Assembly (NCBI GenBank): GCA_016650115.1
Contig: JAENWI010000001.1
Coordinates: 1 to 30,773 of the forward strand
Direction of reading: 5' to 3'
Length of the DNA: 30,773 nt
Origin: Peptostreptococcaceae bacterium
GTDB lineage: Bacteria > Bacillota > Clostridia > Peptostreptococcales > Anaerovoracaceae
The notes beneath the pieces were generated by a model that was not told the DNA's origin, made no database searches, and saw only the letters and a program-made list of their open reading frames with translations. Positions 1 through 29,314 of the stretch are shown here, one piece after another. The translations under genes were made by a program, and so were the position numbers. Positions within the stretch are counted from its first letter, which is position 1. Each line of letters begins with the position of its first letter.

Positions 1-75
1 GAACACAGAAGTTAAGCTCTTTAGCGCCGATGATACTTGGCGGGCAGCTGCCTGGGAAAGTAGGACGTCGCCGGT
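1..75 (+). rRNA. rrf: 5S rRNA, 3' portion (5' end outside window)
   Basis: GAACACAGAAGTTAAGCTC (loop C/helix III), GATGATACT...GGGAAAGTAGG (loop E) and 3' helix-I strand GTCGCCGG match the bacterial 5S rRNA pattern; followed by a terminator. Confidence 0.95.
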
Positions 76-79
76 TTTA

Positions 80-534: not shown

Positions 535-737
535 GTGAAATCAACTTATCCGAGGCAGAAGGTTTACAAATTTTCTGGAGAGAGTTAACCTTTATTTTAT
601 TAAATTATATCTCCCAAGTTAACCCGGAAGTGGGTTTGCCTCAGTTTTTCACTCTAGAAGTGGGTGCCATCAGTTTGCCAAACTGTAAATGTTTAAATTT
701 GACATTAAACACTATACTGTAAAGGTAAACTTTAATT

Positions 738-819: not shown

Positions 820-1794
820 ATGTTTTTAGGAGCAATCGATATTGGTGGAACTAAAACAATAGTGGCAGTATGTGATGAAAAGGGTAACATAATAGAAATG
901 GAAAATTTTCCAACAGAAAATGGAGATTGGATGGTACATTTCAGAATTACCGCAGAAAAATTCATTCAGTGTGTAAATAAACTTCAAATTGATATAAATG
1001 AGGATTTATCAGGTATAGGAATTAATGTTCCAGGTATGGTTGATGAAAATGGCATTTTGATTTATGCGCCTCATCAAAACTGGAGAGATGTGCATGTGAA
1101 AGATTATTTTTCGAATTATTTCAAGACGGATAAAATAATCGTTGAAAATGATGTTAATTCGTGTGCTGTTGGAGAAATGATTTTTGGTGGCGGAGGTCAC
1201 GATTTCCTTTGGATTACAATCAGTACTGGAAATGGAGGGGCAATTATTGCAAACGGCCAATTAATTAGGGGGAATCAAAGCTGCGCCGGAGAATTTGGCC
1301 ATTTAAAAGTTGAATTTGAATCCCCAAGAAAATGTTCGTGTGGTCAATATGGTTGTCTAGAGGCTCATAGCTCCGGCACAGCTATTAAAGAACAGTTTGA
1401 AGAAGCTTTATTATATGATTTGAATTTAAAAGAAACTGTGCTTAACAAGCAAATAAAAGACGAGAAATTCAAAATTGACGCCTATGGCTTAAGCCTCTTG
1501 GCTCGAGAAGGGAATTCTGTAGCAATTGATATATTTACAAGGACGGGGATGTATCTTGGCAGGGCTATTTCGTATGGAGTTAATATTTCGAATCCACAGA
1601 CTGTTTATTTGGGGGGAGGAATTGCTGAATCACTAGATCTAATTTTACCGGCTATTATTATGGAATTGGATAAATGTGCAATAGAAGAATGTGGAAAAGT
1701 TACAATTTGCAAGACCAAATTGGGGTATAACGCTGCAATAATTGGCGCATCGGCATTGGTATATCTTCAGAAAGATATACTTGCTAATTTGTAA
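820..1794 (+). CDS. ROK-family sugar kinase (no HTH)
   Basis: N-terminal DIGGTK phosphate-1 motif, ENDVN, ISTGNGG, GEFGH, CSCGQYGCLE zinc motif, GGGIA; no N-terminal DNA-binding domain. Confidence 0.9.
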   Translation: MFLGAIDIGGTKTIVAVCDEKGNIIEMENFPTENGDWMVHFRITAEKFIQCVNKLQIDINEDLSGIGINVPGMVDENGILIYAPHQNWRDVHVKDYFSNYFKTDKIIVENDVNSCAVGEMIFGGGGHDFLWITISTGNGGAIIANGQLIRGNQSCAGEFGHLKVEFESPRKCSCGQYGCLEAHSSGTAIKEQFEEALLYDLNLKETVLNKQIKDEKFKIDAYGLSLLAREGNSVAIDIFTRTGMYLGRAISYGVNISNPQTVYLGGGIAESLDLILPAIIMELDKCAIEECGKVTICKTKLGYNAAIIGASALVYLQKDILANL

Positions 1795-1809
1795 AACTTT
1801 TATTATAAT
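1781..1809 (+). promoter_or_regulatory. Putative sigma-A promoter of the lacI-led operon
   Basis: TTGCTA (1781-1786), 17 nt, TATAAT (1804-1809). Confidence 0.7.
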
Positions 1810-1814
1810 GAAAT

Positions 1815-1828
1815 TGTAATCGTTTACA
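1815..1828. promoter_or_regulatory. LacI-family operator or cre site
   Basis: TGTAATCGTTTACA, near-palindrome with central CG, just downstream of the -10; near-identical site at 7374. Confidence 0.75.
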
Positions 1829-1862
1829 TTTTGTATAACGTTTTCAGAAGGAGGTTTCGATA

Positions 1863-2870
1863 TTGAATATTAAAGATATTGCCAGTTTGACAGGACTTTC
1901 TGTTGCTACTGTATCCAGAGTTATAAATAATCATTCAAGCGTAACCAAAGAAACCAGAGAAAAAGTTGAAAAAGTAATAAAAGAAACAGGTTATACGCCA
2001 AATTTCCTGGGCAGGAATTTACGCGTCTCTAAAACACATAAGATTCTTGTTATTATCCCAACAATAGGCAATTTGTTTTATTCGGAAATACTTGAAGCTA
2101 TTCAAGAGGCATCTACTAACTCGGGATTCAATATATTAATCGGTATTACAAATAATGACACTGAGTTGGAAAAGAAATATATGGAACTTTTAACCACAAA
2201 ACAAGTCGATGGTGCCATTTTATTTCTTTCTCGATTTGATAAAGAGATTATGACCGCCTGGTCAAAAAAATTCCCGATTGTTCAGTGTTGTGAATATACA
2301 AGAGGATCAGATGTTACGAATGTAAGCATTGACAATAAGCAAGGGGCATACGATGCTGTGTCTTATTTGATCAGTAAGGGACATACAAAAATCGGTGCAA
2401 TAAGAGGTCAGCTGTATTTTGCTTCAGAAGCGGATAGAACAGATGGATACATGCAGGCATTGTCAGATAACGGGATAGAACGTGATTTGAAATATTCCTA
2501 TGTAACAGAATATACCATGGAAGGCGGTAAGAAAGGTGCGGAGGCACTCATGAGATTAGAAAATCCGCCGACTGCCATATTTGCGTATGGTGATACAATA
2601 GCAATCGGTGTAATAAAAACATTGAAAGATATGAAAAAAATTGTAATGAATAGAAAAGATGGCAAGAGAAATGTAGCAGTGCTCGGGTTTGATGATATTC
2701 CTCTTTGCACTTTATTCACACCTACAATATCAACGGTGGAACAGCCAAAATATCAGCTCGGAGTAACTGCCTTTAATTTGTTAATGGAAAAAATGAATGA
2801 TCCGGATATGGAAAATAAATCAGTTGTCTTACCACATAGATTAATAATAAGACAATCAAGTGAATTTTAG
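1863..2870 (+). CDS. LacI/GalR-family transcriptional regulator
   Basis: HTH IKDIA...SVATVSRVIN, hinge GYTPN, periplasmic-type core ending GFDD...STVEQP; TTG start after RBS GGAGGT. Confidence 0.95.
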   Translation: MNIKDIASLTGLSVATVSRVINNHSSVTKETREKVEKVIKETGYTPNFLGRNLRVSKTHKILVIIPTIGNLFYSEILEAIQEASTNSGFNILIGITNNDTELEKKYMELLTTKQVDGAILFLSRFDKEIMTAWSKKFPIVQCCEYTRGSDVTNVSIDNKQGAYDAVSYLISKGHTKIGAIRGQLYFASEADRTDGYMQALSDNGIERDLKYSYVTEYTMEGGKKGAEALMRLENPPTAIFAYGDTIAIGVIKTLKDMKKIVMNRKDGKRNVAVLGFDDIPLCTLFTPTISTVEQPKYQLGVTAFNLLMEKMNDPDMENKSVVLPHRLIIRQSSEF

Positions 2871-2880
2871 GAGGTGTAAA

Positions 2881-4014
2881 ATGAAAAAGTATAGAGTAGG
2901 TATCATAGGTAGTGGTTTTATAGGTAGTGTTCATGTTGAAGCAGTAAGACGCCTGGGACTAGGTGAAATCGTAGCACTTACTGAAAAACAGGATGCAAAA
3001 GGAAAGGCCGAAGCACTTTATATACCTGATTATTTTGATGATTACAAAAAAATGATAGATACGAAGGAATTGGATATGGTCCATATTTGTACACCGAATA
3101 ATACCCATCATGAAATGAGCACTTATGCTTTAAAAAAAGGTGTGAATGTTATTTGTGAAAAACCAATGTGCAGGACCATTGAAGAAGGCGAAGATATGGT
3201 TAAGGTAGCGAAGGAGACAGGACTTGTCAATGCAATCAATTTTCATAACAGATTTTATCCAATGACTTATGAAATGAAAGAAAAAATTAAAATGGGACAG
3301 GTTGGCGATATTTGGTCAGTTCATGGAGTTTATCTGCAGGACTGGTTATTCCATGATACAGATTATAACTGGAGAATTGATCCGGCTTTTTCTGGTTCAA
3401 CTCGGGCTGTAGCCGATATAGGTTCACATTGGATTGATCTTGCTGAAACGGTTACAGGGTTAAAAGTCGTTGAAGTTTTTGCTGATTTTGCTACCTTCCA
3501 TAAAACCAGAAAGAAATCTCTTGATAATATTGCCTTCAGTAAAGAAAAGTCGGATATTTATGAGGAAATAAAGATTGAATCTGAGGATCATGCACATATA
3601 TTACTTAGATTTGAGAATGGTGCAGTGGGTAATGCAGTAATAAGTCAGGTGGTTGCCGGAAGAAAAAACAGAATAACTCTTAATGTAGATGGATCAGAAG
3701 AGGCTCTCTTTTGGACGACGGACGATTTGAATAATCTGTGGATTGGGCATAGAGATTCGTCAAATGAAATACTGACAAAGGACCCTAGTCTTGTCAGTAA
3801 TGCTACAATTAAACAAATAGCTTATCCCGGTGGGCATGCAGAGGGATTTCCAGATGCTTTCAAGAACAACTTCAGAGCCATTTATAAATCAATAGAAGAT
3901 AAAAGTTCGCCAATTGAGTATGCAACCTTTGCCGACGGACTCAGAGAAATGAAAATATGCGATAAGATATTTGAAAGTTATCATACAAATAAATGGGTTA
4001 AAGTTGACGAATAG
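2881..4014 (+). CDS. Gfo/Idh/MocA-family NAD(P)-dependent oxidoreductase
   Basis: GIIGSGFIG Rossmann motif, ICTPN..H, CEKP, DIGSHWID; start moved to ATG 2881 because RBS GGAGGT is at 2870-2875. Confidence 0.92.
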   Translation: MKKYRVGIIGSGFIGSVHVEAVRRLGLGEIVALTEKQDAKGKAEALYIPDYFDDYKKMIDTKELDMVHICTPNNTHHEMSTYALKKGVNVICEKPMCRTIEEGEDMVKVAKETGLVNAINFHNRFYPMTYEMKEKIKMGQVGDIWSVHGVYLQDWLFHDTDYNWRIDPAFSGSTRAVADIGSHWIDLAETVTGLKVVEVFADFATFHKTRKKSLDNIAFSKEKSDIYEEIKIESEDHAHILLRFENGAVGNAVISQVVAGRKNRITLNVDGSEEALFWTTDDLNNLWIGHRDSSNEILTKDPSLVSNATIKQIAYPGGHAEGFPDAFKNNFRAIYKSIEDKSSPIEYATFADGLREMKICDKIFESYHTNKWVKVDE

Positions 4015-4026
4015 AAAAGAAGTGAG

Positions 4027-5397
4027 ATGATGATAAAAAATTCAGTAATGAAATATACAAAAGAACTGGCAGACAATTTGGATAAAACGGATTTCAATGT
4101 TTTGACGCAAATCATTGAAAGACTTGTTGTTACAAAAATTTCTGGCAAGACTGTTTTTACTGCAGGAAATGGCGGCAGCGCATCAACAGCCTCACATATG
4201 GCCAATGATTTCATAAAAGGCTGCAGAGTGCATAATAGAGAAGGATTTAAAATACTTTGTCTTGCCGATTCAAGCGCCATAATTACTTGTTTGGCAAATG
4301 ATTTTTCATATGAGGAAATATTTTCAATCCCATTAAAAACATTGGGTAAAAAAGGAGACACGCTTGTTGTTTTCAGTGGCAGCGGGAACTCTCCCAATAT
4401 AATTAAAGCTGTTATGCAGGCAAAAGAAATGGGGATTTTCACCATTGGATTTTCTGGGAGGGACGGTGGGCAACTAAAGGGAATTTGCGACATTTTACTG
4501 ATAGCGCCGACAAACTCAATGGAACAGCTTGAGGATATGCATATGATATATGAACATGCAATGTCCTGCGCGATACAAGAAGAACTGACAGATCAATGGG
4601 GTATCGAGATTGTTAAATTCCCCCAAAAGGTAATGAAGATAAAATCAGCATTATTTGATTTTGATGGAACGGTGAGTCTTATCAGAGAAGGCTGGCAGGA
4701 TGTGATGATCCCTTATTTTATTGAAGTTCTATCTGGTACTCCTGGCGCCGAAGATTCTACAAAAATAAAAAATTGCGTCAGAGAATTTGTTGATGTTTTA
4801 ACGGGTAAACAAACAATTTTTCAGTGCATGAGGCTTGATGAAGAGGTTGTCAGACGTGGTGGAGAATCAGTAAATCCATTGATTTACAAGCAGGAATATT
4901 TAAAAAGACTTATGGAGAGAATCAGGCACAGACATGAAAAACTTAAGTTAGGTACAAACTCTGAAGAATATATTGTGAAAGGGTGTGTTGATTTACTTAA
5001 GGGACTTAGGAAAGAGGGTATTGCTATATATCTTGCAAGTGGGACAGATGAAGCAGATGTCTTAGATGAAGTGAAATTACTTGGGCTTAGCGAATATTTT
5101 GACGGTGGAATCTATGGCGCTGTGGATGGCGTGACAGATTGCTCAAAGGAACTTGTTATTAAAAAAATTATTGCGGAAAACAAAATAGAGCCTGAACAAC
5201 TTGTTTCGTTTGGAGATGGGTATGTGGAAATAGAACTTGTTAAAAATATTGGAGGCTACACCTTTGGTGTTGCAACGGATGAGGTTCGAAAAAAAGGTAT
5301 TAATGAGTGGAAAAGAAACAGATTGTTAGCAGCCGGTGCAGATGCAATAATTCCAGACTTTGAAGAAAGCCAAAAAATTATTGATTTTATTAAGTAA
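4027..5397 (+). CDS. GmhA-like SIS sugar-phosphate isomerase fused to a C-terminal HAD hydrolase
   Basis: SIS motifs GNGGSA..ASH, TCLANDFSYEEIF, SGSGNS, LEDMH; HAD motifs FDFDGT, LASGT, K, FGDGYVE. Confidence 0.88.
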   Translation: MMIKNSVMKYTKELADNLDKTDFNVLTQIIERLVVTKISGKTVFTAGNGGSASTASHMANDFIKGCRVHNREGFKILCLADSSAIITCLANDFSYEEIFSIPLKTLGKKGDTLVVFSGSGNSPNIIKAVMQAKEMGIFTIGFSGRDGGQLKGICDILLIAPTNSMEQLEDMHMIYEHAMSCAIQEELTDQWGIEIVKFPQKVMKIKSALFDFDGTVSLIREGWQDVMIPYFIEVLSGTPGAEDSTKIKNCVREFVDVLTGKQTIFQCMRLDEEVVRRGGESVNPLIYKQEYLKRLMERIRHRHEKLKLGTNSEEYIVKGCVDLLKGLRKEGIAIYLASGTDEADVLDEVKLLGLSEYFDGGIYGAVDGVTDCSKELVIKKIIAENKIEPEQLVSFGDGYVEIELVKNIGGYTFGVATDEVRKKGINEWKRNRLLAAGADAIIPDFEESQKIIDFIK

Positions 5398-5408
5398 GGA
5401 GCTGGAAA

Positions 5409-6392
5409 ATGCCATATAAAGAATTTGACAGAAGCAGGCTTGTTTTATTACCTCTGATTCAAAGAGTTCATGACGTTAATATTTCGATCATTAAAAATTT
5501 TAATGATAATGTGGAAATGATAGAAAATGAAAAGTTTGACTTGTTGGCAGAGGCAATCATTAAGGCGAAATTGAAAAAAGCAACTACCTTAATGATGTAT
5601 GGTGCGCATGTTATAAGAACCGGTAACGGGTTATATATGATAGAAATGATGAAAAGAGGACTTATTACTCACTTTGCAACAAATGGTGCTGGTGCTATTC
5701 ATGATTTCGAATTGGCTATGATAGGTGCAACCTGTGAGAGTGTAGCAAAATATATTTCTGAAGGACAATTTGGATTGTGGGAAGAAACAGGTATATTTAA
5801 TGAAGCTGTTAACCAAGGTTATGCGTTGGGTTTGGGATTTGGAGAAGCTGTTGGAAAATATATTTGGGAGCATGATTTCCCGTTTAAAGAAAAAAGCGTT
5901 TTAGCAATGGGCTATAAACTGGGTGTGCCTTGCACTGTTCATATTGGAATCGGCAACGATATTACAAATGAACTTCCAAATTGTGATGGGGCTGCGATAG
6001 GAGCCACTTCTTATAAAGATTTCCTGATATACACTGAAAGCATAACTAATTTAGAAAATGGGATTTTTCTGAACTTTGGATCTGCAGTAGCAGGACCCGA
6101 AGTGTATTTAAAGGCACTTGCCATGGCACGAAATGTCGCTAACCAGGAAAACAGAAAAATAACCAACTTTACAACAGCTGTTTTTGATCTAATCCCTATC
6201 GAAAGTGAAGATTTCACAGAAATACCACCTAAAACAGACCCCAGATATTATTTCAGACCCTGGAAAACCATTTTGTCCAGGACCGTTGCAGATGGTGGAA
6301 AAAGCTATTACATTTCCGGAGACCATGGAATTACAGTACCTAATATAGTGAAGAGGGCAATAGGGTTATATGAAAAAAATGAAAATATCTGA
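5409..6392 (+). CDS. Conserved hypothetical protein, probable deoxyhypusine-synthase-like NAD-binding fold
   Basis: MYGAHVIRTG...GLITHFATNGAGAIHD, SVLAMGYKLGVP and FLNFGSAV parallel DHS-family segments; judged by eye. Confidence 0.6.
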   Translation: MPYKEFDRSRLVLLPLIQRVHDVNISIIKNFNDNVEMIENEKFDLLAEAIIKAKLKKATTLMMYGAHVIRTGNGLYMIEMMKRGLITHFATNGAGAIHDFELAMIGATCESVAKYISEGQFGLWEETGIFNEAVNQGYALGLGFGEAVGKYIWEHDFPFKEKSVLAMGYKLGVPCTVHIGIGNDITNELPNCDGAAIGATSYKDFLIYTESITNLENGIFLNFGSAVAGPEVYLKALAMARNVANQENRKITNFTTAVFDLIPIESEDFTEIPPKTDPRYYFRPWKTILSRTVADGGKSYYISGDHGITVPNIVKRAIGLYEKNENI

Positions 6393-7368
6393 TTTCAACG
6401 TAGATAACATCATTGACAGACTAAAAAACATAGAGAAAATAACGATTACTGTAGTGGGGGATTATAGCCTGGATAAATATGTTTACAGTGATCCTGCAAG
6501 AGATGAACTTTCGGTTGAAACTGGTCTGATTGCTTATCAGATACATGATACTGCCAAGTATGCAGGGATTGGAGGAACAGTCACAAACAATCTTAGAAGC
6601 GTAGGGGCAAATGTCATTTGCATTGGACTTGTGGGAAATGATGGAGAAGGATTTGAGATGATCAGAGAACTGAAAAAAACTGGAGCAGACGTGGAAAAAA
6701 TGATAGTTTCTGACGATATCCAAACGAATACTTACCTTAAGCCAATGCGAGGACAGAACAGGCAAAATTCTGTTGAAATAAATAGGCTTGATTTTAGAAA
6801 TTTTAAAGCGACATCAAAGAATGCGGAAGATAAAATAATAAAGAACCTAAGAAAAGCTGTTTCTGTTTCACATGGTGTCATTATTACAGATCAATTTATT
6901 GATAGAAACCATGGAGTAATTACAGACAAAGTACGAACAGAAATCAGCCGAATTGCGTTAGAATATCCTAATGTATTTTTTTGTGCCGATTCCAGAGGTT
7001 TTATTAATGAGTTTAAAAATGTAATCCAGAAGTGTAATGAATTTGAGATAAAAAAAACAGTAAATAACGCAGAAAACAAGGAAACTATAAAAACTAGATT
7101 TGTTACTTTGGGAGGAAAAGGAGTAAAAATATATTCTGAAAACGAGACAGTTCTTGTCCCCAGTTTTAAGGCAAAACCTCCTTTGGACTTTTGTGGTGCA
7201 GGGGATGCTACTAATGCCGGCATCATGATTGGTCTTACTTTGGGGCTTAAAATTGAAGAATCGGTTTTACTTGGAGCCTGTATGGCTTCTATAACAATTG
7301 AGCAAATTGGTATTACGGGAGTTGCCGGTTATGATCAAATTATTAATAAAATTAATGGGAAAAAATAA
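6370..7368 (+). CDS. PfkB/ribokinase-family kinase, RfaE/HldE domain-I-like, stand-alone
   Basis: VVGDYSLDKY (cf. VVGDVMLDRY), GIGGTVTNNL, GLVGND, DFCGAGD anion hole; no cytidylyltransferase-type domain. Confidence 0.85.
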   Translation: MKKMKISDFNVDNIIDRLKNIEKITITVVGDYSLDKYVYSDPARDELSVETGLIAYQIHDTAKYAGIGGTVTNNLRSVGANVICIGLVGNDGEGFEMIRELKKTGADVEKMIVSDDIQTNTYLKPMRGQNRQNSVEINRLDFRNFKATSKNAEDKIIKNLRKAVSVSHGVIITDQFIDRNHGVITDKVRTEISRIALEYPNVFFCADSRGFINEFKNVIQKCNEFEIKKTVNNAENKETIKTRFVTLGGKGVKIYSENETVLVPSFKAKPPLDFCGAGDATNAGIMIGLTLGLKIEESVLLGACMASITIEQIGITGVAGYDQIINKINGKK

Positions 7369-7373
7369 AATGA

Positions 7374-7387
7374 TGTAAACGATTACT
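7374..7387. promoter_or_regulatory. Second LacI-family operator or cre site
   Basis: TGTAAACGATTACT is 13/14 identical to the reverse complement of 1815-1828. Confidence 0.7.
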
Positions 7388-7414
7388 ATATTGAAAAATC
7401 AAGCATTTTTAGTG

Positions 7415-7443
7415 TTGACATTGTGTTAGGAATGTGTTAATTT
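7415..7443 (+). promoter_or_regulatory. Putative promoter of the ABC transporter genes
   Basis: TTGACA (7415-7420), 17 nt, TAATTT (7438-7443) with TG at 7435-7436 (extended -10). Confidence 0.6.
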
Positions 7444-7510
7444 AATGTTGATAGTCTAGCAATAATACTATTGCTAAAATAAAAAACAAACAAAACAGGA
7501 GGAGAAAATT

Positions 7511-8533
7511 ATGAAAAAAGTATTGGCTATAGTAATGGCATTGGTCCTGGTACTAGGAATGGTTGCTTGTGGTGGCGGCGGTGCTGCTGAACCGGAAAAA
7601 GTTGGAACATTAGGTGTAGTAATGCCTAACGCAACTCATGGTTTTTTAGGTGAAAGTATTGCACATGCAAAAGCAGAAGCAGATGCTATTGCAGCTGAAA
7701 CAGGACTTACTGTTAAATTCTTAACTTCAGCTGAATCTTCAGAACAAAACAATCAAATTGATCAGCTAATTGCTGATGGTGTTGATTGTATCGTACTTTG
7801 GCCACATAATGGTGATGAAGTAAGATCTTCAGCACAGGCAGTAATGGAAGCTGGCATCCCTCTAATTATCTATGATAGATTAATAAATGACTTCGTACCG
7901 ACTGCTGAGTTAATGGGAGACAATGAAACAATCGGCAAGATGACAGGGGAATACTTTAATAAATTCTTCGCTACTGAATTGGCGGCAGGAAAAGTAAATG
8001 TACTTGAATTCAAAGGTGACAACTCAACAGTTCCAGAACAGAGATCAAAAGGATTTGCTTCGACTGCAAGTGCAAATATAAATATTGTACAACAGTTCTC
8101 AACCGACTGGCAAAGAGCGAAAGCTATGGAACAGTTAGAAACGTGGTTTGCAAGTTCAAGTGTAGCAGATATTGAAGCTCTTCAGGGAATATTTACTCAT
8201 GATGATGAAGTTGTTCTTGGCGTTCTAGATGCTATTAATAACTATGATGGACCAGCAACACTGAACATTAAACTGGTATCAGGTGTAGGCGGAAGAGTTG
8301 AAAACTTAGACACATTTGCACCTTGGGCAGAAAAAGGCGTTATGCAGGTTACCTATGCATTTTCACCATCAATGGTAAGAGATGCTGTAAAGCTTGGATC
8401 AGAAATTGTACTTGATGGAGCAACTCCAACTGGACTGAAATTAATCCCTACAGTTGAAATTGATAATTCAAATGAACAGGAATTCAGAACAAATGATATC
8501 TTCGTAACAAGATACAGCATTACAGCAGAGTAA
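7511..8533 (+). CDS. Sugar ABC transporter substrate-binding lipoprotein (RbsB-like)
   Basis: Signal peptide with lipobox MVA-C, QIDQLIADGVDCIVLWP, AGIPLIIYDR, R..GF, DWQR..A, HDDE. Confidence 0.93.
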   Translation: MKKVLAIVMALVLVLGMVACGGGGAAEPEKVGTLGVVMPNATHGFLGESIAHAKAEADAIAAETGLTVKFLTSAESSEQNNQIDQLIADGVDCIVLWPHNGDEVRSSAQAVMEAGIPLIIYDRLINDFVPTAELMGDNETIGKMTGEYFNKFFATELAAGKVNVLEFKGDNSTVPEQRSKGFASTASANINIVQQFSTDWQRAKAMEQLETWFASSSVADIEALQGIFTHDDEVVLGVLDAINNYDGPATLNIKLVSGVGGRVENLDTFAPWAEKGVMQVTYAFSPSMVRDAVKLGSEIVLDGATPTGLKLIPTVEIDNSNEQEFRTNDIFVTRYSITAE

Positions 8534-8552
8534 TATTATAATTTAGTTAAGC

Positions 8553-8585
8553 ATGGATGTCGATTGTAATACAATCGACATCCAT
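8553..8585. other. Perfect 15-bp stem-loop after the SBP gene (mRNA stabiliser or partial terminator)
   Basis: ATGGATGTCGATTGT-AAT-ACAATCGACATCCAT; no following U-tract. Confidence 0.8.
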
Positions 8586-8624
8586 ATTACTAATATATTT
8601 CACTTTAGATAGGTGGGTATCAAC

Positions 8625-10130
8625 ATGTTTTTAGAAATGAAAAATATAACTAAAAAATTTGGACCTGTGGTAGCATTAGATGATGTGAGCTTTTCTGTCG
8701 GAGAAGCAGAAATCCATGGTCTTCTTGGAGAAAATGGTGCCGGAAAGTCAACACTAATGAATGTTTTAGCAGGAACCTTTCCACCAACTAGTGGAGAAGT
8801 TTTTTTAAATGGCCAGCATTTAACGGGGCTTAATGCCAAAAAATCCTTTGCGCTTGGCATAGGATTTGTACATCAGGAACTGAATTTAATCAATGATTTA
8901 AAAATATATGAAAACTTATTTCTTGGAGAAGAAATTACAAATAAATGGGGCACTCTAGATAAACCTTTAATGAGATTAAAAGCAAAAGAAGTAATGAAAA
9001 AGATGAATTTGGATATTAGTCCTGATTTACAGGTTGCATATTTAGATACGTCAGTAAAGCAACTTGTGGAAATCGCAAGAGCGCTTCTTTTTGATTGTAA
9101 ACTCATTATAATGGATGAACCAACTACAGCTTTAACAAACAAAGAAATAGAAAACCTGTTTTCTATTATGAGAAAATTGAAAAATGATGGTGTCTCTATT
9201 ATATATATATCACATAAAATGCCAGAATTGTTTTCTATTTGTGATAAGTACACCGTCTTAAGAGATGGGAAATTTATACAAAGCGGATATTTTAAAGATA
9301 TTGACGAGAAAATTGCAACCCAGCTATTGGTTGGACGAAGTTTATTAGAGGCCGAAATTACCAAGGAAGCAGTGACAGGAGAGACCATTCTATCGGTTAA
9401 AGATATTACCTGTAAAGGGTATTTCGAGAATATATCTTTCGACTTAAAAGAAGGTGAAATTTTAGCAATCACTGGACTTCATGGAGATGGAAGAGGTGAA
9501 CTTTCTGAGGCATTGTTTGGTGCAAGAAGACTGGATTGCGGGCAGGTCATCCTGAGGGGAGAAAAACTGAACTTCAGGCATATCAGTAATGTGATAAAAA
9601 AGGGAATCGGTATGGTTCCAAGAAGCAGAAAAGAAAGATCTATTATTAAAGATATGAGTATTTTAAACAATATGGCGACAGCATATTTCGTCGGCAAACA
9701 TAAAAAAGCCTATATAAGCAATAAAGACACTGATAGATTATTTGAAGAAAATCAGAAAAAGGCAGCGATTAGAGTTGGAAGCAGGCATGATCTGATAACA
9801 TCCTTAAGTGGTGGAAACCAGCAAAAGGTTATTATATCCAGGTGGCTGGAGATTAACTCTGATATTTACATTTTAGATAATCCGACACAGGGAATTGATG
9901 TTGGAGCCAAGTTTGAGATGTATAAAATAATAAATGGACTTGCAGAAAATGGGAAAAGTATTATTATGTTTTCTTCTGAATTCCCTGAAATTTACAAAGT
10001 GGCGGACAGATGCCTGGTTATGTATAAGGGGAAAATCAATGCAGAATTGGATAGAAGTCAACTGTCTGAAGTCGATGTAATGTATTATGCGACTGGATCA
10101 AATATGGAGGGCATAAAAAATGAAATTTAA
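8625..10130 (+). CDS. CUT2 sugar ABC transporter ATP-binding protein (RbsA/MglA-like, two NBDs)
   Basis: GENGAGKST, IIMDEPT, YISHKM, LSGGNQQKV; ATG 8625 preferred (RBS AGGTGG at 8611-8616). Confidence 0.95.
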   Translation: MFLEMKNITKKFGPVVALDDVSFSVGEAEIHGLLGENGAGKSTLMNVLAGTFPPTSGEVFLNGQHLTGLNAKKSFALGIGFVHQELNLINDLKIYENLFLGEEITNKWGTLDKPLMRLKAKEVMKKMNLDISPDLQVAYLDTSVKQLVEIARALLFDCKLIIMDEPTTALTNKEIENLFSIMRKLKNDGVSIIYISHKMPELFSICDKYTVLRDGKFIQSGYFKDIDEKIATQLLVGRSLLEAEITKEAVTGETILSVKDITCKGYFENISFDLKEGEILAITGLHGDGRGELSEALFGARRLDCGQVILRGEKLNFRHISNVIKKGIGMVPRSRKERSIIKDMSILNNMATAYFVGKHKKAYISNKDTDRLFEENQKKAAIRVGSRHDLITSLSGGNQQKVIISRWLEINSDIYILDNPTQGIDVGAKFEMYKIINGLAENGKSIIMFSSEFPEIYKVADRCLVMYKGKINAELDRSQLSEVDVMYYATGSNMEGIKNEI

Positions 10131-11151
10131 TTTATTCGAAAAACATGTTGAGGAGGAAGCCCCAACAATACAAGGTACCGGATTCAAGGATAAATTCTTC
10201 AAGTTTTATCATAATTATACTTTTGTTTTTTCATTCGCTGTTTTAATAATAATTGCGACTTATTTCAACCCGTCTTTTTTGAGCTATGGTAATATTACCC
10301 TTCTGTTGCTGCAGTCCACTATTAAAGGAATCATCGCCTGTGGCATGACTCTCGTTATCATTGCTGGAATGATTGACCTTTCTGTCGGTTCAATGGTAGC
10401 TCTAGTAGGAGGATTGGGCGTAGTAGTTTTAAATACAACAGGAAGTGCATGGATAATGTTTTTCTTTTGCGTCGCATTTGGAACCTTCCTTGGCGCAATA
10501 AACGGGTTGCTGGTAACAAAAGCCAAGATCGCACCATTTATAGTAACACTAGCAACAATGGTTGCCTTCAGATCAATCATCGTACAGTTAGGCCAGGGTG
10601 GTCCGTTTAATGTTGACCCTAAGGTTTATGACAGTTTTAGACTTGTGGCGGCAGGCTATTTGTTTAGAAGCGATAATTTCAAAGGGATTCCATATATGGC
10701 TATCTGGTTTGTTGCTATTGTTTTAATTATGGCGTTTATCATGTCAAAAACAAAATTTGGCAGATATGTATATGCAGTCGGATCTAATGAACTGGCAGCC
10801 AAATTAACCGGAATAAATACTATTTATATTAAAACCATGTGTTTTGTTATTACCGGTCTGCTGGTTGGGGTAGCTGCTTTTTTACTTGCCTCAAGACTTA
10901 CGTCGATAACAGCTCCAAATGTCGGAATGTCTTACGAGTTGGATGCAATTGCCGCAGTTGCAATTGGTGGAACGGCCATGGCGGGTGGAAGCGGTCTCAT
11001 TGTTGGCACCTTCATTGGTGCTATTATGTTGCAAATGATAGAAGGAATTTTAATCGCAGCGCAAATACCTGTATTTTTAAATGGTTTAGTAAAAGGTATA
11101 ATTATTATTGTAGCTGTAGTGTTCCAAAGCAGAAGAGAGAGGAAGGCTTAA
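10120..11151 (+). CDS. Sugar ABC transporter permease (RbsC-like)
   Basis: Multi-TM; GMIDLSVGS, APFIVTLAT, FGRYVYAVGSNE, YELDAIAAVAIGGT. Confidence 0.95.
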   Translation: MKFNLFEKHVEEEAPTIQGTGFKDKFFKFYHNYTFVFSFAVLIIIATYFNPSFLSYGNITLLLLQSTIKGIIACGMTLVIIAGMIDLSVGSMVALVGGLGVVVLNTTGSAWIMFFFCVAFGTFLGAINGLLVTKAKIAPFIVTLATMVAFRSIIVQLGQGGPFNVDPKVYDSFRLVAAGYLFRSDNFKGIPYMAIWFVAIVLIMAFIMSKTKFGRYVYAVGSNELAAKLTGINTIYIKTMCFVITGLLVGVAAFLLASRLTSITAPNVGMSYELDAIAAVAIGGTAMAGGSGLIVGTFIGAIMLQMIEGILIAAQIPVFLNGLVKGIIIIVAVVFQSRRERKA

Positions 11152-12144
11152 GTGAGAAATATTGCGCTGATGACTGGACAATTTTCAGATATCCCTTTTG
11201 AAAACCTATGCGAAAAATTGAACGAACTTGGATATAAGGGGGTTGAATTAGCCTGCCTTGGCGATCATTTTAATGTTCGAGAAGCAGCAGAAAATTTGAA
11301 TTATTGCCAGAAAAAACTTGATATATTAAATAAATACAACCTAGAATGTAAGGTTATATCTGGACATCTAATAGGGCAGTGTGTAGGAGATCTATACGAT
11401 AAAAGACTTGATAACTTTGCCCCTGAAAAACTTTCTGGAGATGGGGATGCAATTAAAAAATGGGCAATTGAAGAAATGAAATATTTGGCAAAAGCAGCCC
11501 ATAATATGGGAGTTGAAGTGGTTTCGTTTTTTACGGGTTCTTCAATCTGGAGATACATTTATTCATTTCCGCAAACAACGGAGGCTATTATAGAAGACGG
11601 ATTTGATGAAATTCTAAAAATATGGTCACCAATTATGGATGAATATGACAAATGGGGAGTTAAACTTGCATTGGAAGTTCATCCTACTGAAATCGCCTTT
11701 GATTACTATACAACCGAAAGGCTTTTGAAAAAATTCGATTATAGAGAGACTTTAGGCATTACTTTTGATCCGAGTCATTTATTATGGCAAGGTGTTAATC
11801 CTACCATATTCCTTCAAGATTTTGCCGATAGAATATACAATGTACATATGAAAGACGTGAAGATTAACAGAGATGGGAAAGCTGGTATTTTAGGGTCGCA
11901 CATTGAATTTGGGGATACAAGGCGAGGATGGAATTTTGTTTCTATTGGCCACGGAGATGTAAATTTTGAAGAGATTATTCGTCAGCTTAACAATATGAAT
12001 TATACTGGAAATATTTCAATTGAGTGGGAAGATAGCGGTATGGACAGGATGTATGGGGCGGCAGAAGCACTTGGATATATTGAAAAACTTGATTTCCCAA
12101 TATCCAAAATAGCCTTCGATAAAGCCTTGAGCTCATCAACGTAA
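11152..12144 (+). CDS. IolE/XylA-like TIM-barrel sugar (keto-sugar) isomerase, epimerase or hydratase
   Basis: Metal-site motifs ALEVHP, FDPSH, VHMKD, GHGDV, SIEWED. Confidence 0.88.
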   Translation: MRNIALMTGQFSDIPFENLCEKLNELGYKGVELACLGDHFNVREAAENLNYCQKKLDILNKYNLECKVISGHLIGQCVGDLYDKRLDNFAPEKLSGDGDAIKKWAIEEMKYLAKAAHNMGVEVVSFFTGSSIWRYIYSFPQTTEAIIEDGFDEILKIWSPIMDEYDKWGVKLALEVHPTEIAFDYYTTERLLKKFDYRETLGITFDPSHLLWQGVNPTIFLQDFADRIYNVHMKDVKINRDGKAGILGSHIEFGDTRRGWNFVSIGHGDVNFEEIIRQLNNMNYTGNISIEWEDSGMDRMYGAAEALGYIEKLDFPISKIAFDKALSSST

Positions 12145-12167: not shown

Positions 12168-12206
12168 GGTATTGAGGATATTTTGTATGTCTTCAGTACC
12201 TTTTTT
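12168..12206 (+). terminator. Intrinsic terminator closing the sugar cluster
   Basis: GGTATTGAGGATAT / ATGTCTTCAGTACC stem (with G-U pairs) followed by TTTTTT. Confidence 0.8.
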
Positions 12207-16005: not shown

Positions 16006-16248
16006 ATGAAAGCTACAGGAATTGTTAGAAAAGTTGATAAGTTAGGACGTATTGTTTTACCTATTGAATTGAGAAATACTTTGGAAATAGGTATAGGAGA
16101 TCCAATAGAAATATATGTTGATGGTGACTTTATTCTGCTGAAAAAATATGCACCTCAATGCATTTTCTGCGGAAATGCGAAGGACGTTGAGAGCGTCAGG
16201 GGTAGGAATGTCTGCACTAATTGTCTGAAGGAAATTAAAGGACTATAG
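16006..16248 (+). CDS. abrB: AbrB/SpoVT-family transcriptional regulator
   Basis: MKATGIVRKVDKLGRIVLPIELR; C-terminal CIFC...CTNC. Confidence 0.9.
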   Translation: MKATGIVRKVDKLGRIVLPIELRNTLEIGIGDPIEIYVDGDFILLKKYAPQCIFCGNAKDVESVRGRNVCTNCLKEIKGL

Positions 16249-27879: not shown

Positions 27880-28422
27880 TTATTTAGTAAATGTTTCCAG
27901 ATCCAGTTCCATTATATAACGATCGTGCCCTTTGCCGTATTCATCTTTTCGGTGCTCCACAATTTCAAAGCCGAGTTTTTCTTTGTACAATTTTATTGCA
28001 GGAGGGTTATTAACATCAACTGTAAGTGTTACACTTTTGAATCCTTGCTCAACTAGATTTCTGCAGATAGTCACTAAAAAATGATATCCCAAACCTTGGC
28101 CTTGAAATTCCTCTATGATGGCATAATCAAATAAATATGCGGTATTAGGATTTTCCCATTCTCTCATCAATATGGCAAATCCAATCAGACGTTGTCTGTT
28201 TTCCTCTTTAAGAACGAACACGTTTCCATGTCGTATTTGTGGTACGAGACCCCACTCATCCATTCCTAATTCACCAAATATATCCTGGCCAAAGTTAACC
28301 ATTCTATTTAGCAATTTCAAATTATAATCCTGTACCTGGTATACTTTCAGATTTCCCACATCACTATCTAAATTATCAATTACACGTCGTGGAAGTCTTC
28401 CAATTTCTTCTAACATGTTCAA
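27880..28422 (-). CDS. GNAT-family N-acetyltransferase (RimI-like)
   Basis: FQGQGLG acetyl-CoA motif, LTVDVNNPPAIKLYKEKLGF; start TTG 28422 or ATG 28416. Confidence 0.9.
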   Translation of the reverse strand: MNMLEEIGRLPRRVIDNLDSDVGNLKVYQVQDYNLKLLNRMVNFGQDIFGELGMDEWGLVPQIRHGNVFVLKEENRQRLIGFAILMREWENPNTAYLFDYAIIEEFQGQGLGYHFLVTICRNLVEQGFKSVTLTVDVNNPPAIKLYKEKLGFEIVEHRKDEYGKGHDRYIMELDLETFTK

Positions 28423-28640
28423 ATCACCATCCTTTTTCTATAAATTCTGATTTTCAAGTATTACTAGTACATTATACAAAAGATTCGAATATGTCAAGAA
28501 AGTTTTTGTTTTATAGCATATATTGATACCATATATATATTTAAACACAAATGATTATCCTGTATATTGTGATTTGCATAAAATCAGTTTTTGCAAATAA
28601 TTATTTGTTTGGAAAGTTCTAAAAATTATAATAATATTGC

Positions 28641-28669
28641 TTGACTTCATCAAATTTAAATAATAAAAT
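28641..28669 (+). promoter_or_regulatory. Putative promoter of the methyltransferase-GH3 genes
   Basis: TTGACT (28641-28646), 17 nt, TAAAAT (28664-28669). Confidence 0.65.
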
Positions 28670-28709
28670 ATACTTAATAATTCCATTTTTTGTAAGAATG
28701 AGGGGGAAA

Positions 28710-29273
28710 ATGTTAATTTTATTGTTGGGCTGCTTAAGTTTTTTGATTTTTATTATATACGATATTAATCAAATAAAGGGGAACCTTCTTTGGATTAAGC
28801 CGTTTTTCTCCATAGGTTGTCTTGTTCTTTGCGGCGTTACTGGTGTGATGATTCTGAAACCGTTTGAAAGCGATATATCAGTTTATCCGTTTGTTTTAAT
28901 CACGTTTATATTTTTAGCTATTATCAGCTTCTTACTCTTAATTTATACATTATTTTTTGCTATTCCTTTTTATGAAGCATACGTTGCTGATACAAAGCAA
29001 AATTTGTGTACCGTAGGAGTTTATTCTCTTTGCAGACATCCGGGTGTTTTGTTTTTTGGGTTTTTCTATCTGTTTTTAGGCATAGGACTTGGTAAACCCT
29101 TTGTGTTGCTGGCAGGTATAGTGTTTACACTAATGAATATTATATATGTTTTTTTACAGGATAAATATTTTTTCCCAAGAGCATTCAAAAACTATGATCA
29201 TTACCAGCAGGATACAAATTTTCTTTTACCATCAAGACGCAGTATAAAAAGATGTTTTAAACATTATATCTAA
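28710..29273 (+). CDS. Isoprenylcysteine carboxyl / phospholipid methyltransferase (ICMT/PEMT) family membrane protein
   Basis: Multi-TM, GVYSLCRHPG motif, terminal FPRAFKNYDHYQQDTNFLLP; ATG 28710 follows RBS GAGGGGG. Confidence 0.82.
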   Translation: MLILLLGCLSFLIFIIYDINQIKGNLLWIKPFFSIGCLVLCGVTGVMILKPFESDISVYPFVLITFIFLAIISFLLLIYTLFFAIPFYEAYVADTKQNLCTVGVYSLCRHPGVLFFGFFYLFLGIGLGKPFVLLAGIVFTLMNIIYVFLQDKYFFPRAFKNYDHYQQDTNFLLPSRRSIKRCFKHYI

Positions 29274-29314
29274 ATCATATTCTTAACAATCATTGAAGGT
29301 GAGGTGTTCGAAAG

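What the first reader, a model, noticed from the sequence alone, without database searches (positions are those of the whole stretch)
820..12144. ADP-heptose-pathway homologues in a LacI-associated uptake and catabolism cluster: candidate heptose salvage system
Seen: nine co-oriented genes that combine a sugar ABC importer, LacI, two sugar kinases, a dehydrogenase and a TIM-barrel enzyme with a GmhA-like isomerase, a HAD phosphatase and an RfaE/HldE-like kinase. No nucleotidyltransferase, glycosyltransferase or HldD-type epimerase is in the window. Known: GmhA interconverts sedoheptulose-7-P and D,D-manno-heptose-7-P; HldE and GmhB act downstream in LPS core synthesis. Inference: with an importer and a repressor, the flux probably runs inward (imported heptose, heptulose or heptitol, then phosphorylation and isomerisation to sedoheptulose-7-P for the pentose phosphate pathway). 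That would be a way for a monoderm anaerobe to scavenge C7 sugars, possibly from LPS of neighbours. I do not know of a described pathway with this gene set. The substrate is not determinable from sequence.
Basis: partly seen in the sequence, partly recalled or inferred. Interest (0 to 1): 0.82.

Follow-up and report, generated by a model that had tools for sequence, protein, structure and literature searches.

The report
Nucleotide-free heptose-phosphate uptake operon
A gut-type anaerobe carries a repressor-controlled ten-gene operon that joins a sugar importer to look-alikes of the first LPS-heptose enzymes and to an uncharacterised, widespread enzyme (GSU2086 family); it most likely breaks down imported seven-carbon sugars, a pathway nobody has described.

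Summary
Ten (not nine) co-oriented, partly overlapping genes at 820-12144 run from a promoter-like site to a terminator hairpin. They share a conserved LacI/cre-type operator.

The core is a GmhA-like SIS::C1-cap HAD fusion, a GSU2086-family protein and an RfaE-domain-I-like PfkB kinase. This core recurs in 67-70 of 80 related loci, and again in Planctomycetota. Importer, ROK kinase, Gfo/Idh/MocA dehydrogenase and TIM barrel are accessories that come and go.

The heptose link is real. GSU2086 relatives sit inside ADP-heptose operons (Geobacter: gmhA-GSU2086-hldE-gmhB). In Planctomycetota they occur in 94 of 151 genomes and are nearly exclusive with HldD. They track LarC, a maker of the nickel-pincer cofactor.

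Neither this genome nor four other importer-type genomes has an HldE-type nucleotidyltransferase. An inward, catabolic flow is therefore the best reading, at about 0.5. The substrate, the role of GSU2086 (proposed: hydride-transfer heptose-phosphate epimerase) and the regiochemistry of the HAD are inferred, not shown.

The scan has met this module before on other DNA.

The parts
684..697 (+). Weak copy (2 mismatches) of the LacI/cre-type palindrome, upstream of the ROK gene and near a promoter-like site at 737-766
820..1794 (+). ROK-family sugar kinase with no DNA-binding domain
   Evidence: PF00480 at 184 bits; ROK glucokinase subfamily at 184 bits, below its cut-off of 260. A ROK gene is present in 16 of 36 well-flanked related loci.
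1815..1828 (+). Perfect palindromic operator TGTAATCGTTTACA, 35 nt upstream of the LacI start
   Evidence: 4 window hits against 0.64 expected. The same motif lies upstream of LacI genes in 8 other loci.
1863..2870 (+). LacI-family repressor
   Evidence: PF00356 plus Peripla_BP_1/3. No equivalog model reaches its cut-off.
2860..4014 (+). Gfo/Idh/MocA oxidoreductase of the sugar C3-oxidising type
   Evidence: Best NCBIfam model is levoglucosan dehydrogenase, 167 bits against a cut-off of 650. PDB matches: 3v5n, 4h3v, levoglucosan dehydrogenase 6a3f (1e-33), DgpA.
4027..5397 (+). Fusion of a GmhA-like SIS isomerase (residues about 1-198) with a C1-cap HAD phosphohydrolase or mutase (about 199-456; DFDGT at 211-215, GDG near 395)
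   Evidence: TIGR00441 at 122 bits against a cut-off of 209. PDB GmhA matches down to 3e-32. The Zn ligands H/E/Q/H of B. pseudomallei GmhA read H/D/E/H here.
5409..6392 (+). GSU2086-family protein (subfamily I) with a deoxyhypusine-synthase / archaeal ornithine-cyclodeaminase fold; the signature enzyme of the module
   Evidence: NF052581 at 378 bits. AF2 model pLDDT 96. Foldseek TM about 0.5 to ArgZ/AgrE C-terminal domain, LOR/SDH and DHS. Profile match to AgrE at 1.5e-7. Tree.
6370..7368 (+). PfkB-family sugar(-phosphate) kinase, closest to the kinase domain of HldE/RfaE
   Evidence: rfaE_dom_I at 118 bits against a cut-off of 345; ribokinase at 60 bits. Lies directly downstream of GSU2086 in 70 of 80 loci.
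7374..7387 (+). Second operator copy (1 mismatch), 124 nt upstream of the binding-protein gene
   Evidence: Conserved upstream of SBP genes in L013-L016.
7511..8533 (+). CUT2 (ribose-type) ABC substrate-binding protein
   Evidence: PF13407 at 112 bits. Best PDB match 4joq at 4e-21. No equivalog.
8613..10130 (+). ABC ATPase with two ATP-binding domains
10120..11151 (+). ABC permease (BPD_transp_2)
11152..12144 (+). Xylose-isomerase-like TIM-barrel enzyme related to 2-hydroxy-3-keto-glucal hydratase
   Evidence: PDB 2zds at 4e-101 and 8ro4 at 4e-50; PF01261.
12168..12200 (+). Terminator-like hairpin followed by a T run; end of the operon

Best explanation
The block is one repressor-controlled catabolic operon. 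It takes up a monosaccharide and feeds it into central metabolism through a conserved, nucleotide-free heptose-phosphate module.

Shown:
- The four core activities travel together and are fused in various pairs. They are the GmhA-like isomerase, the C1-cap HAD, GSU2086 and the HldE-kinase-like PfkB.
- Their relatives work in ADP-heptose synthesis.
- The adenylyltransferase step is missing from this genome.
- Importer and core share an operator.

Inferred pathway (not shown):
1. The ABC system imports a manno-heptose. L-glycero-D-manno-heptose from LPS cores is the most attractive candidate.
2. The ROK kinase phosphorylates it at O7.
3. The PfkB kinase adds the anomeric phosphate, giving heptose 1,7-bisphosphate.
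4. GSU2086 epimerises it (L,D to D,D) by transient hydride abstraction. It uses a tightly bound nicotinamide-type cofactor, possibly the nickel-pincer nucleotide.
5. The HAD half of the fusion removes the 1-phosphate.
6. The fused SIS half isomerises D,D-heptose-7-P to sedoheptulose-7-P.

The Gfo/Idh/MocA dehydrogenase and the TIM barrel are a variable front end of 3-keto-sugar chemistry. They would convert or release a related sugar.
For: Operon structure: overlapping genes and a terminator.

Shared regulation: the operator TGTAATCGTTTACA is found before LacI and SBP here. It is found before LacI, SBP and SIS-HAD genes in 12 other loci.

Core conservation:
- PfkB in 70, SIS in 69 and the cap-HAD in 67 of 80 loci.
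- Among 36 well-flanked loci, an importer in 13 and ROK in 16.
- The same core occurs as PfkB::HAD - GSU2086 - AGE-type isomerase - SIS, under sugar-binding GntR regulators, in Planctomycetota.
- Oscillospiraceae use another front end, a FucI/SftI-like isomerase.

Heptose link:
- GSU2085 hldE - GSU2086 - GSU2087 gmhA in G. sulfurreducens (PMC5585712).
- gmhA-GSU2086-hldE-gmhB in a Geobacter MAG; GmhA-like genes adjacent in 24 of 80 diderm loci.
- HldE adjacent in 12 of 20 Planctomycete loci, and lpxK adjacent in others.
- Domain fusions.
- Lachnospiraceae clusters hold a 65-68% identical GSU2086 beside HldE-, GmhB- and GmhA-like genes.

Epimerase idea:
- Among 138 HldE-positive Planctomycetota, GSU2086 and HldD co-occur in 6, occur alone in 83 and 26, and are both missing in 23.
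- None of 5 other GSU2086-bearing diderm genomes has HldD above its cut-off.
- The fold and motif relatives (DHS, AgrE ornithine cyclodeaminase) use NAD as a regenerated cofactor (the mechanism is established knowledge).

No nucleotide activation: no HldE domain II here or in 4 other importer-type genomes.

Nickel-pincer lead:
- LarC is in 88 of 94 GSU2086-positive against 36 of 57 GSU2086-negative Planctomycetota.
- Among genomes without LarA the figures are 50 of 54 against 15 of 33.
- larBCE lies divergent from the module in L021 and L026.
Against: - No enzyme was assayed and the substrate is unknown.
- A kinase plus a phosphatase acting on one intermediate is unusual for catabolism.
- The SIS domain scores below the GmhA cut-off and has E->D and Q->E changes at the metal site.
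- The PfkB is far below the rfaE_dom_I cut-off.
- The window protein belongs to subfamily I, whereas the HldD complementarity concerns subfamily II. The two may differ in reaction.
- The co-occurrence counts are not corrected for shared ancestry.
- LarC is common anyway: 59% of the window's phylum. This genome also has a distant LarA-like gene.
- 13 of 36 well-flanked loci show the core with a ROK gene at most and no importer detected by my queries.
- Earlier notes of this scan place the module beside mannoside genes, so a hexose substrate is possible.
Confidence: 0.5

Rival explanations
1. The module acts on a manno-configured hexose or another non-C7 sugar phosphate, for example mannose or fructose phosphates from mannosides. 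The heptose-pathway likeness would reflect common ancestry only.
For: - All four core enzymes score below the equivalog cut-offs of the heptose enzymes.
- The GmhA metal and phosphate-site residues are altered.
- A Planctomycete version carries an AGE-family (mannose-isomerase-type) enzyme.
- Earlier notes of this scan report mannoside-utilisation neighbours (not tested here).
Against: - The GSU2086 copy is 65-68% identical in clusters that hold GmhB-like (159 bits against a cut-off of 178) and HldE-like genes.
- GmhA-like proteins in those clusters score the same as the window's SIS domain (117 against 122 bits).
- No mannose-specific enzyme lies in the window.
Confidence: 0.2
2. The flow is anabolic. 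Sedoheptulose-7-P (or the 1,7-bisphosphate, through the HAD) would be converted to a heptose 1-phosphate or bisphosphate. That product would serve as a metabolite or signal, or as a donor for an unlinked transferase. The importer would supply a precursor or an inducer.
For: - The enzyme order mirrors GmhA - HldE kinase - GmhB.
- Lachnospiraceae recruit the same GSU2086 into a glycan-synthesis cluster.
- No transaldolase was found, so a sedoheptulose-bisphosphate route exists in principle.
Against: - No HldE-type nucleotidyltransferase in 5 of 5 importer-type genomes.
- Sugar-responsive repressors, cre-like operators, importers and free-sugar isomerases surround the core.
- The HAD is not GmhB-like.
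Confidence: 0.17
3. Two unrelated units merely lie side by side: an ordinary sugar importer with 3-keto-sugar enzymes, and the SIS::HAD/GSU2086/PfkB trio.
For: The core occurs without an importer, dehydrogenase or TIM barrel in many loci. The dehydrogenase and TIM barrel resemble the levoglucosan and 3-keto-glucoside enzymes, which need no heptose chemistry.
Against: - The trio lies between the dehydrogenase and the importer, with 11-12 nt gaps and overlapping genes.
- The same operator precedes both units here and in other genera.
- The same ten-gene order occurs in L013, and the same set in another order in L061.
Confidence: 0.08

Closest known systems
[quoted passage not shown]
   Same: A GmhA-type SIS isomerase, a PfkB kinase closest to HldE domain I and a HAD phosphohydrolase. 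The signature enzyme's relatives lie inside gmhA/hldE/gmhB operons.
   Different: - No adenylyltransferase and no HldD.
- The HAD is a C1-cap type, not the cap-less HAD-IIIA of GmhB.
- All scores are below the equivalog cut-offs.
- The genes sit with an importer, a repressor and a ROK kinase in a monoderm.
HldD (ADP-L-glycero-D-manno-heptose 6-epimerase, SDR fold)
   Same: It is the proposed functional analogue of GSU2086: epimerisation by transient hydride transfer to a bound nicotinamide cofactor. In Planctomycetota its distribution complements that of GSU2086.
   Different: An unrelated fold (SDR against DHS/ornithine-cyclodeaminase-like). The substrate here cannot be a nucleotide sugar if no nucleotidyltransferase exists. 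The activity is untested.
LarA-family racemases and epimerases with the nickel-pincer nucleotide made by LarB, LarC and LarE
   Same: GSU2086 tracks LarC across genomes, especially where LarA is missing. In two loci it lies next to larBCE. The chemistry would again be reversible hydride transfer.
   Different: No sequence or fold likeness to LarA. No evidence that GSU2086 binds NPN. LarC is common in these phyla anyway.
Levoglucosan (LgdA/B/C) and 3-keto-glucoside pathways (glycoside 3-dehydrogenase, eliminase, 2-hydroxy-3-keto-glucal hydratase; DgpA/B/C)
   Same: The window's dehydrogenase and TIM barrel have these as their nearest characterised relatives.
   Different: Only one TIM-barrel gene and one dehydrogenase are present. 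Identity is modest. This pair occurs in only 8-12 of 36 related loci.
Archaeal-type ornithine cyclodeaminase (AgrE/ArgZ C-terminal domain) and deoxyhypusine synthase
   Same: The fold (TM about 0.5) and a shared G-x-H/V-I-x-T-G ... N-A-I-A-V-H-D-I-E motif.
   Different: 13-16% identity. The genomic context has no amine or polyamine genes.

Membership tests
GSU2086 family (NCBIfam NF052581) | Whole-protein score above the curated cut-off of 250 bits | tested here: met
   377.8 bits, covering 300 of 301 profile positions
GmhA (D-sedoheptulose-7-phosphate isomerase, TIGR00441) | Score above the equivalog cut-off of 209 bits | tested here: not met
   122.5 bits. GmhA-like genes of Lachnospiraceae heptose clusters score about the same, 117 bits.
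GmhA (D-sedoheptulose-7-phosphate isomerase, TIGR00441) | Zn/catalytic residues His, Glu, Gln, His (B. pseudomallei H64, E68, Q175, H183) | tested here: inconclusive
   The alignment to 2x3y gives H, D, E, H: all are metal-capable but two are changed.
HldE kinase domain (rfaE_dom_I, TIGR02198) | Score above the cut-off of 345 bits | tested here: not met
   117.6 bits. It is still the best-scoring model, ahead of ribokinase at 60 bits.
GmhB (HAD-IIIA heptose-1,7-bisphosphate 7-phosphatase) | Match to the GmhB / HAD-IIIA models; cap-less architecture | tested here: not met
   No GmhB or HAD-IIIA hit. About 125 residues separate motif I (DFDGT) from motif II, which indicates a C1 cap. True GmhB-like genes in type B loci score 141-159 bits.
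Complete ADP-heptose pathway | Heptose-1-phosphate adenylyltransferase (HldE domain II) present | tested here: not met
   None found in the window or in the 80%-complete genome. None found in 4 other importer-type genomes.
Complete ADP-heptose pathway | HldD 6-epimerase present | tested here: not met
   The best hit is 112 bits against a cut-off of 275.
LacI-regulated catabolic operon | A palindromic operator shared by the regulator gene and its target genes, conserved in orthologous loci | tested here: met
   The motif also fits the cre consensus, so CcpA control cannot be told apart from control by the local LacI.
Levoglucosan dehydrogenase (NF052479) | Score above the cut-off of 650 bits | tested here: not met
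   166.7 bits
NPN-dependent enzyme | Binds the nickel-pincer nucleotide; requires LarB, LarC and LarE | not testable with these tools
   Only co-occurrence and two cases of adjacency.

The most novel reading that the evidence does not exclude
GSU2086 proteins are a second, structurally unrelated family of nickel-pincer-nucleotide (or tightly bound NAD) hydride-transfer epimerases. They would interconvert D,D- and L,D-manno-heptose phosphates.

- Subfamily II would replace HldD in LPS core synthesis of many diderm phyla: Planctomycetota, Geobacter, Nitrospirota, Verrucomicrobiota and others.
- Subfamily I, as in this window, would run the reaction in reverse. That would let anaerobes and planctomycetes eat the heptose of other bacteria's LPS.
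Probability: 0.2. Interest if true: 0.9.

Novelty: new variant of a known kind. Interest (0 to 1): 0.72.

Why it matters
Heptoses are among the commonest bacteria-specific sugars, and their phosphates and ADP-derivatives are innate-immune agonists. Even so, six phrase searches of the held literature ('heptose catabolism', 'heptose salvage' and the like) found no paper on a catabolic or salvage route.

The GSU2086 family is large: more than 2000 clusters at 50% identity. It is in 62% of the Planctomycetota sampled. Every source that names it calls it hypothetical.

If the proposed role holds, three things follow.
- It would explain how diderm bacteria without HldD might make L,D-heptose.
- It would name a missing user of the nickel-pincer cofactor.
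- It would add a carbon source to models of gut and rumen Clostridia.

All three can be tested with ordinary enzymology.

Tried and rejected
- A single-sequence AF2 model of GSU2086 was useless (pLDDT 36). The model built on an alignment replaced it.
- The search for related loci with the 48-sequence alignment failed because no stretch was conserved enough.
- Complex prediction with NAD as partner was not folded and gives no evidence either way.
- GSU2086 as a replacement for GmhA: rejected. GmhA-like genes are in 115 of 151 Planctomycetota, including most GSU2086 carriers, and lie adjacent in many diderm loci.
- The cap-HAD as an obligatory partner of all GSU2086 proteins: rejected. It is in only 9 of 151 Planctomycetota, 8 of which carry GSU2086; where the genes are adjacent (L221-L223) the GSU2086 is subfamily I.
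- The HD-domain protein of the Lachnospiraceae clusters is not a homologue of the window's HAD.
- Polyamine or hypusine chemistry: nothing in the context supports it.
- Literature searches for GSU2086, DHS-like plus heptose, and heptose catabolism or salvage found nothing relevant beyond a Tn-seq table.
- Atlas and AFDB cluster searches added no named relatives.
Full report
**What is there.** The + strand of 820-12144 holds ten genes:
- ROK kinase
- LacI repressor
- Gfo/Idh/MocA dehydrogenase
- SIS_2::HAD fusion
- a GSU2086-family protein
- PfkB kinase
- a CUT2 ABC importer of three genes (binding protein, double ATPase, permease)
- a xylose-isomerase-like TIM barrel

Three junctions overlap and one abuts. 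The other gaps within the two main units are 11-12 nt. A promoter-like site lies at 737-766, and a strong hairpin with a T run at 12168-12200 closes the block. Upstream is the 3' part of a 5S rRNA. Downstream are housekeeping genes: tmk, holB, a PSP1-domain gene and later an Rnf complex. The window holds no nucleotidyltransferase, glycosyltransferase or HldD.

**One regulon.** The palindrome TGTAATCGTTTACA lies 35 nt before the LacI gene. A one-mismatch copy lies before the binding-protein gene, and a weaker copy before the ROK gene. The window has four hits where 0.64 are expected. Across 80 related loci, 16 of 20 hits with at most one mismatch are intergenic. They lie just upstream of LacI, SBP or SIS-HAD genes in several genera. 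The motif also fits the cre consensus, so I cannot tell the local LacI from CcpA. Either way it is catabolic-type control that joins the importer and the heptose-like genes.

**What is conserved.** The GSU2086-family protein has over 8000 word-sharing relatives. All that carry a name are called hypothetical. HMMER finds 2048 clusters at 50% identity.

In 80 genome loci at 60-92% identity, tblastn with the window's proteins found:
- PfkB in 70, SIS in 69 and the cap-HAD in 67
- ROK in 32, the ABC ATPase in 26 and the dehydrogenase in 25
- LacI in 16 and the TIM barrel in 16

Of 36 loci with at least 6 kb on both sides, 13 have the importer and 16 have ROK. Only 3 have a nucleotidyltransferase. 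The core is therefore SIS + cap-HAD + GSU2086 + PfkB, and the rest are exchangeable front ends. In Caproiciproducens and other Oscillospiraceae the front end is an AraC regulator, a FucI/SftI-like free-sugar isomerase, an importer, ROK and a second PfkB.

The closest locus (a Peptostreptococcales MAG, 92% identity) has the same ten genes in the same order. Tepidanaerobacter acetatoxydans has the same set in another order.

**Is it heptose chemistry?** Several independent lines say yes for the family.
1. In G. sulfurreducens, GSU2086 lies between hldE and gmhA. Its Tn-seq phenotype is like theirs (PMC5585712).
2. Natural fusions join the domain to SIS, HAD, PfkB, a cytidylyltransferase-like domain, and an ARMT1 phosphatase plus cytidylyltransferase.
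3. In 80 loci from diderm phyla (Poribacteria, Nitrospirota, Geobacterales, Bacteroidota, Verrucomicrobiota, Acidobacteriota and others), a GmhA-like gene is adjacent in 24 and HldE parts in up to 13 each. A Geobacter MAG reads gmhA-GSU2086-hldE-gmhB.
4. In Planctomycetota the family is nearly a core gene, in 94 of 151 genomes sampled. In the window's own phylum it is in 5 of 301. In 12 of 20 Planctomycete loci it sits directly beside HldE-like kinase and adenylyltransferase genes. In at least one other (L121) it sits beside lpxK.
5. Lachnospiraceae have a biosynthetic version with a radical-SAM enzyme, GT2, an HD hydrolase, GSU2086, an HldE-like fusion, a GmhA-like gene and a GmhB-like gene. 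Its GSU2086 is 65-68% identical to the window's. Its kinase is only about 20% identical.

The window's SIS domain scores 122 bits on the GmhA model. That is the same as the GmhA-like genes of those clusters (117-118 bits). All of these Clostridial proteins fall below the cut-off of 209.

**What GSU2086 may do.** The alignment-based AF2 model is confident (pLDDT 96). Its nearest folds are the ornithine-cyclodeaminase domain of ArgZ/AgrE, a LOR/SDH protein and deoxyhypusine synthase, at TM about 0.5 and 13-16% identity. A profile of the family matches AgrE by sequence at 1.5e-7 over the motif G-A-H-V-I-K-T-G ... N-G-A-x-x-I-H-D-F-E. It is established knowledge that both relatives use NAD+ as a regenerated hydride carrier. 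Sugar epimerases such as HldD do the same.

Distribution points the same way. Among 138 HldE-positive Planctomycetota the counts are:

| | HldD present | HldD absent |
|---|---|---|
| GSU2086 present | 6 | 83 |
| GSU2086 absent | 26 | 23 |

The odds ratio is 0.06, uncorrected for ancestry. Two of the seven genomes that have both genes in the full 151-genome sample (one of them lacks HldE) also carry the cap-HAD and the subfamily I core arrangement. Five further diderm carriers have no HldD above its cut-off. They include the complete genomes of Desulfosarcina widdelii and a Poribacterium. GmhA is not what GSU2086 replaces: GmhA-like genes are present in 115 of 151 genomes.

**Two subfamilies.** A maximum-likelihood tree splits the family with 100/99 support.
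- Subfamily II is the diderm type that lies next to HldE.
- Subfamily I holds the window, all Clostridial loci including the biosynthetic ones, and the Planctomycete operons that read GntR-type sugar regulator, PfkB::cap-HAD fusion, GSU2086, AGE-family isomerase, SIS.

The nucleotide-free core is therefore old and spans phyla. It is a sister of the LPS enzyme, not the same protein. This is the main caveat on carrying the epimerase inference over to the window.

**A cofactor lead.** Earlier notes of this scan mention nickel-pincer-cofactor genes beside the module, so I tested that.
- LarC is present in the window's genome, as larB-larC on contig C366.
- LarC is present in all 14 other GSU2086 carriers checked outside the Planctomycete sample.
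- In Planctomycetota, LarC is in 88 of 94 carriers against 36 of 57 non-carriers.
- Among genomes without LarA the figures are 50 of 54 against 15 of 33.
- larB-larC-larE is transcribed divergently from cap-HAD-GSU2086-PfkB in two Oscillospiraceae loci.

Against this, LarC is common: 59% of the window's phylum. This genome also has a distant LarA-like gene. I treat NPN dependence as a lead worth about 0.35-0.4.

**Direction of flow.** The case for catabolism:
- No HldE domain II in this genome or in four other importer-type genomes, while the biosynthetic Lachnospiraceae genome has one.
- Sugar-responsive repressors of three families, importers and free-sugar isomerases surround the core.
- The operator is cre-like.
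- The HAD is a C1-cap type, not GmhB.

A scheme that uses every conserved enzyme is:
1. Imported L,D-heptose is phosphorylated at O7 by ROK.
2. It is phosphorylated at O1 by PfkB.
3. It is epimerised as the bisphosphate by GSU2086.
4. It is dephosphorylated at O1 by the HAD half.
5. It is isomerised to sedoheptulose-7-P by the fused SIS half.

This explains why the HAD differs from GmhB and why it is fused to the isomerase. Every step is inferred. Two alternatives fit equally well: the HAD as a beta-phosphoglucomutase-like heptose mutase, and the PfkB as a sedoheptulose-7-P 1-kinase. The second fits a genome in which no transaldolase was found.

**The accessory pair.** The dehydrogenase's nearest characterised relatives are levoglucosan dehydrogenase and DgpA. 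The TIM barrel matches SCO6571 (2zds, 4e-101) and 2-hydroxy-3-keto-glucal hydratase (8ro4, 4e-50). Together they look like 3-keto-sugar chemistry. Such chemistry could epimerise or unmask an imported sugar or cleave a glycoside. They occur in only a third or fewer of related loci.

**Verdict.** The finding is real and is not an ordinary sugar operon. The heptose reading is well grounded for the enzyme family and plausible for this operon. 'Salvage from LPS' remains conjecture. The module has been reported by this scan on other DNA.

Noticed in passing
window 1-76 and 350-550: The 3' part of a 5S rRNA (Rfam, 43 bits) lies at the window start. I saw a bidirectional terminator-like hairpin at 499-520.
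   Followed up: partly
L017, L031, L039, L086 (Thermoguttaceae MAGs from goat and other guts): These Planctomycetota carry a subfamily I GSU2086 that is 67-70% identical to Clostridial ones. In the tree it is nested inside the Bacillota clade. This suggests transfer from gut Firmicutes.
   Followed up: partly
L093 and L094 (metagenome contigs): GSU2086 homologues lie on phage-like contigs. Neighbours include a reverse transcriptase, NT5C, sigma factors and RecA with an intein. On L093 the gene sits beside an SDR epimerase and an HldE-like gene. These may be phage-encoded heptose pathways.
   Followed up: no
L085, L090, L092, L095: Biosynthetic clusters join GSU2086 and HldE-like genes to radical-SAM enzymes (one of them B12-binding), an HD hydrolase, a TPP enzyme and GT2. 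These are probably modified-heptose glycan pathways.
   Followed up: partly
G430:C6:16102-16947: An HldD-like frame (265 bits, just under the cut-off) with an in-frame TAG lies in a GSU2086-positive Planctomycete. It may be a decaying hldD.
   Followed up: no
G000 contig C366 (L230 7556-8950): larB-larC (nickel-pincer cofactor synthesis) in the window's own genome, cut by the contig end. A distant LarA-like gene lies on contig C171.
   Followed up: partly
window 16006-16248: A small MazE/AbrB-type antitoxin-like ORF stands alone between a methyltransferase gene and an EPSP-synthase-family gene.
   Followed up: no
window 27880-30772: A GNAT gene lies divergent from an unassigned 210-aa ORF and a GH3-family gene that runs off the window, as another first-stage note describes.
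   Followed up: no
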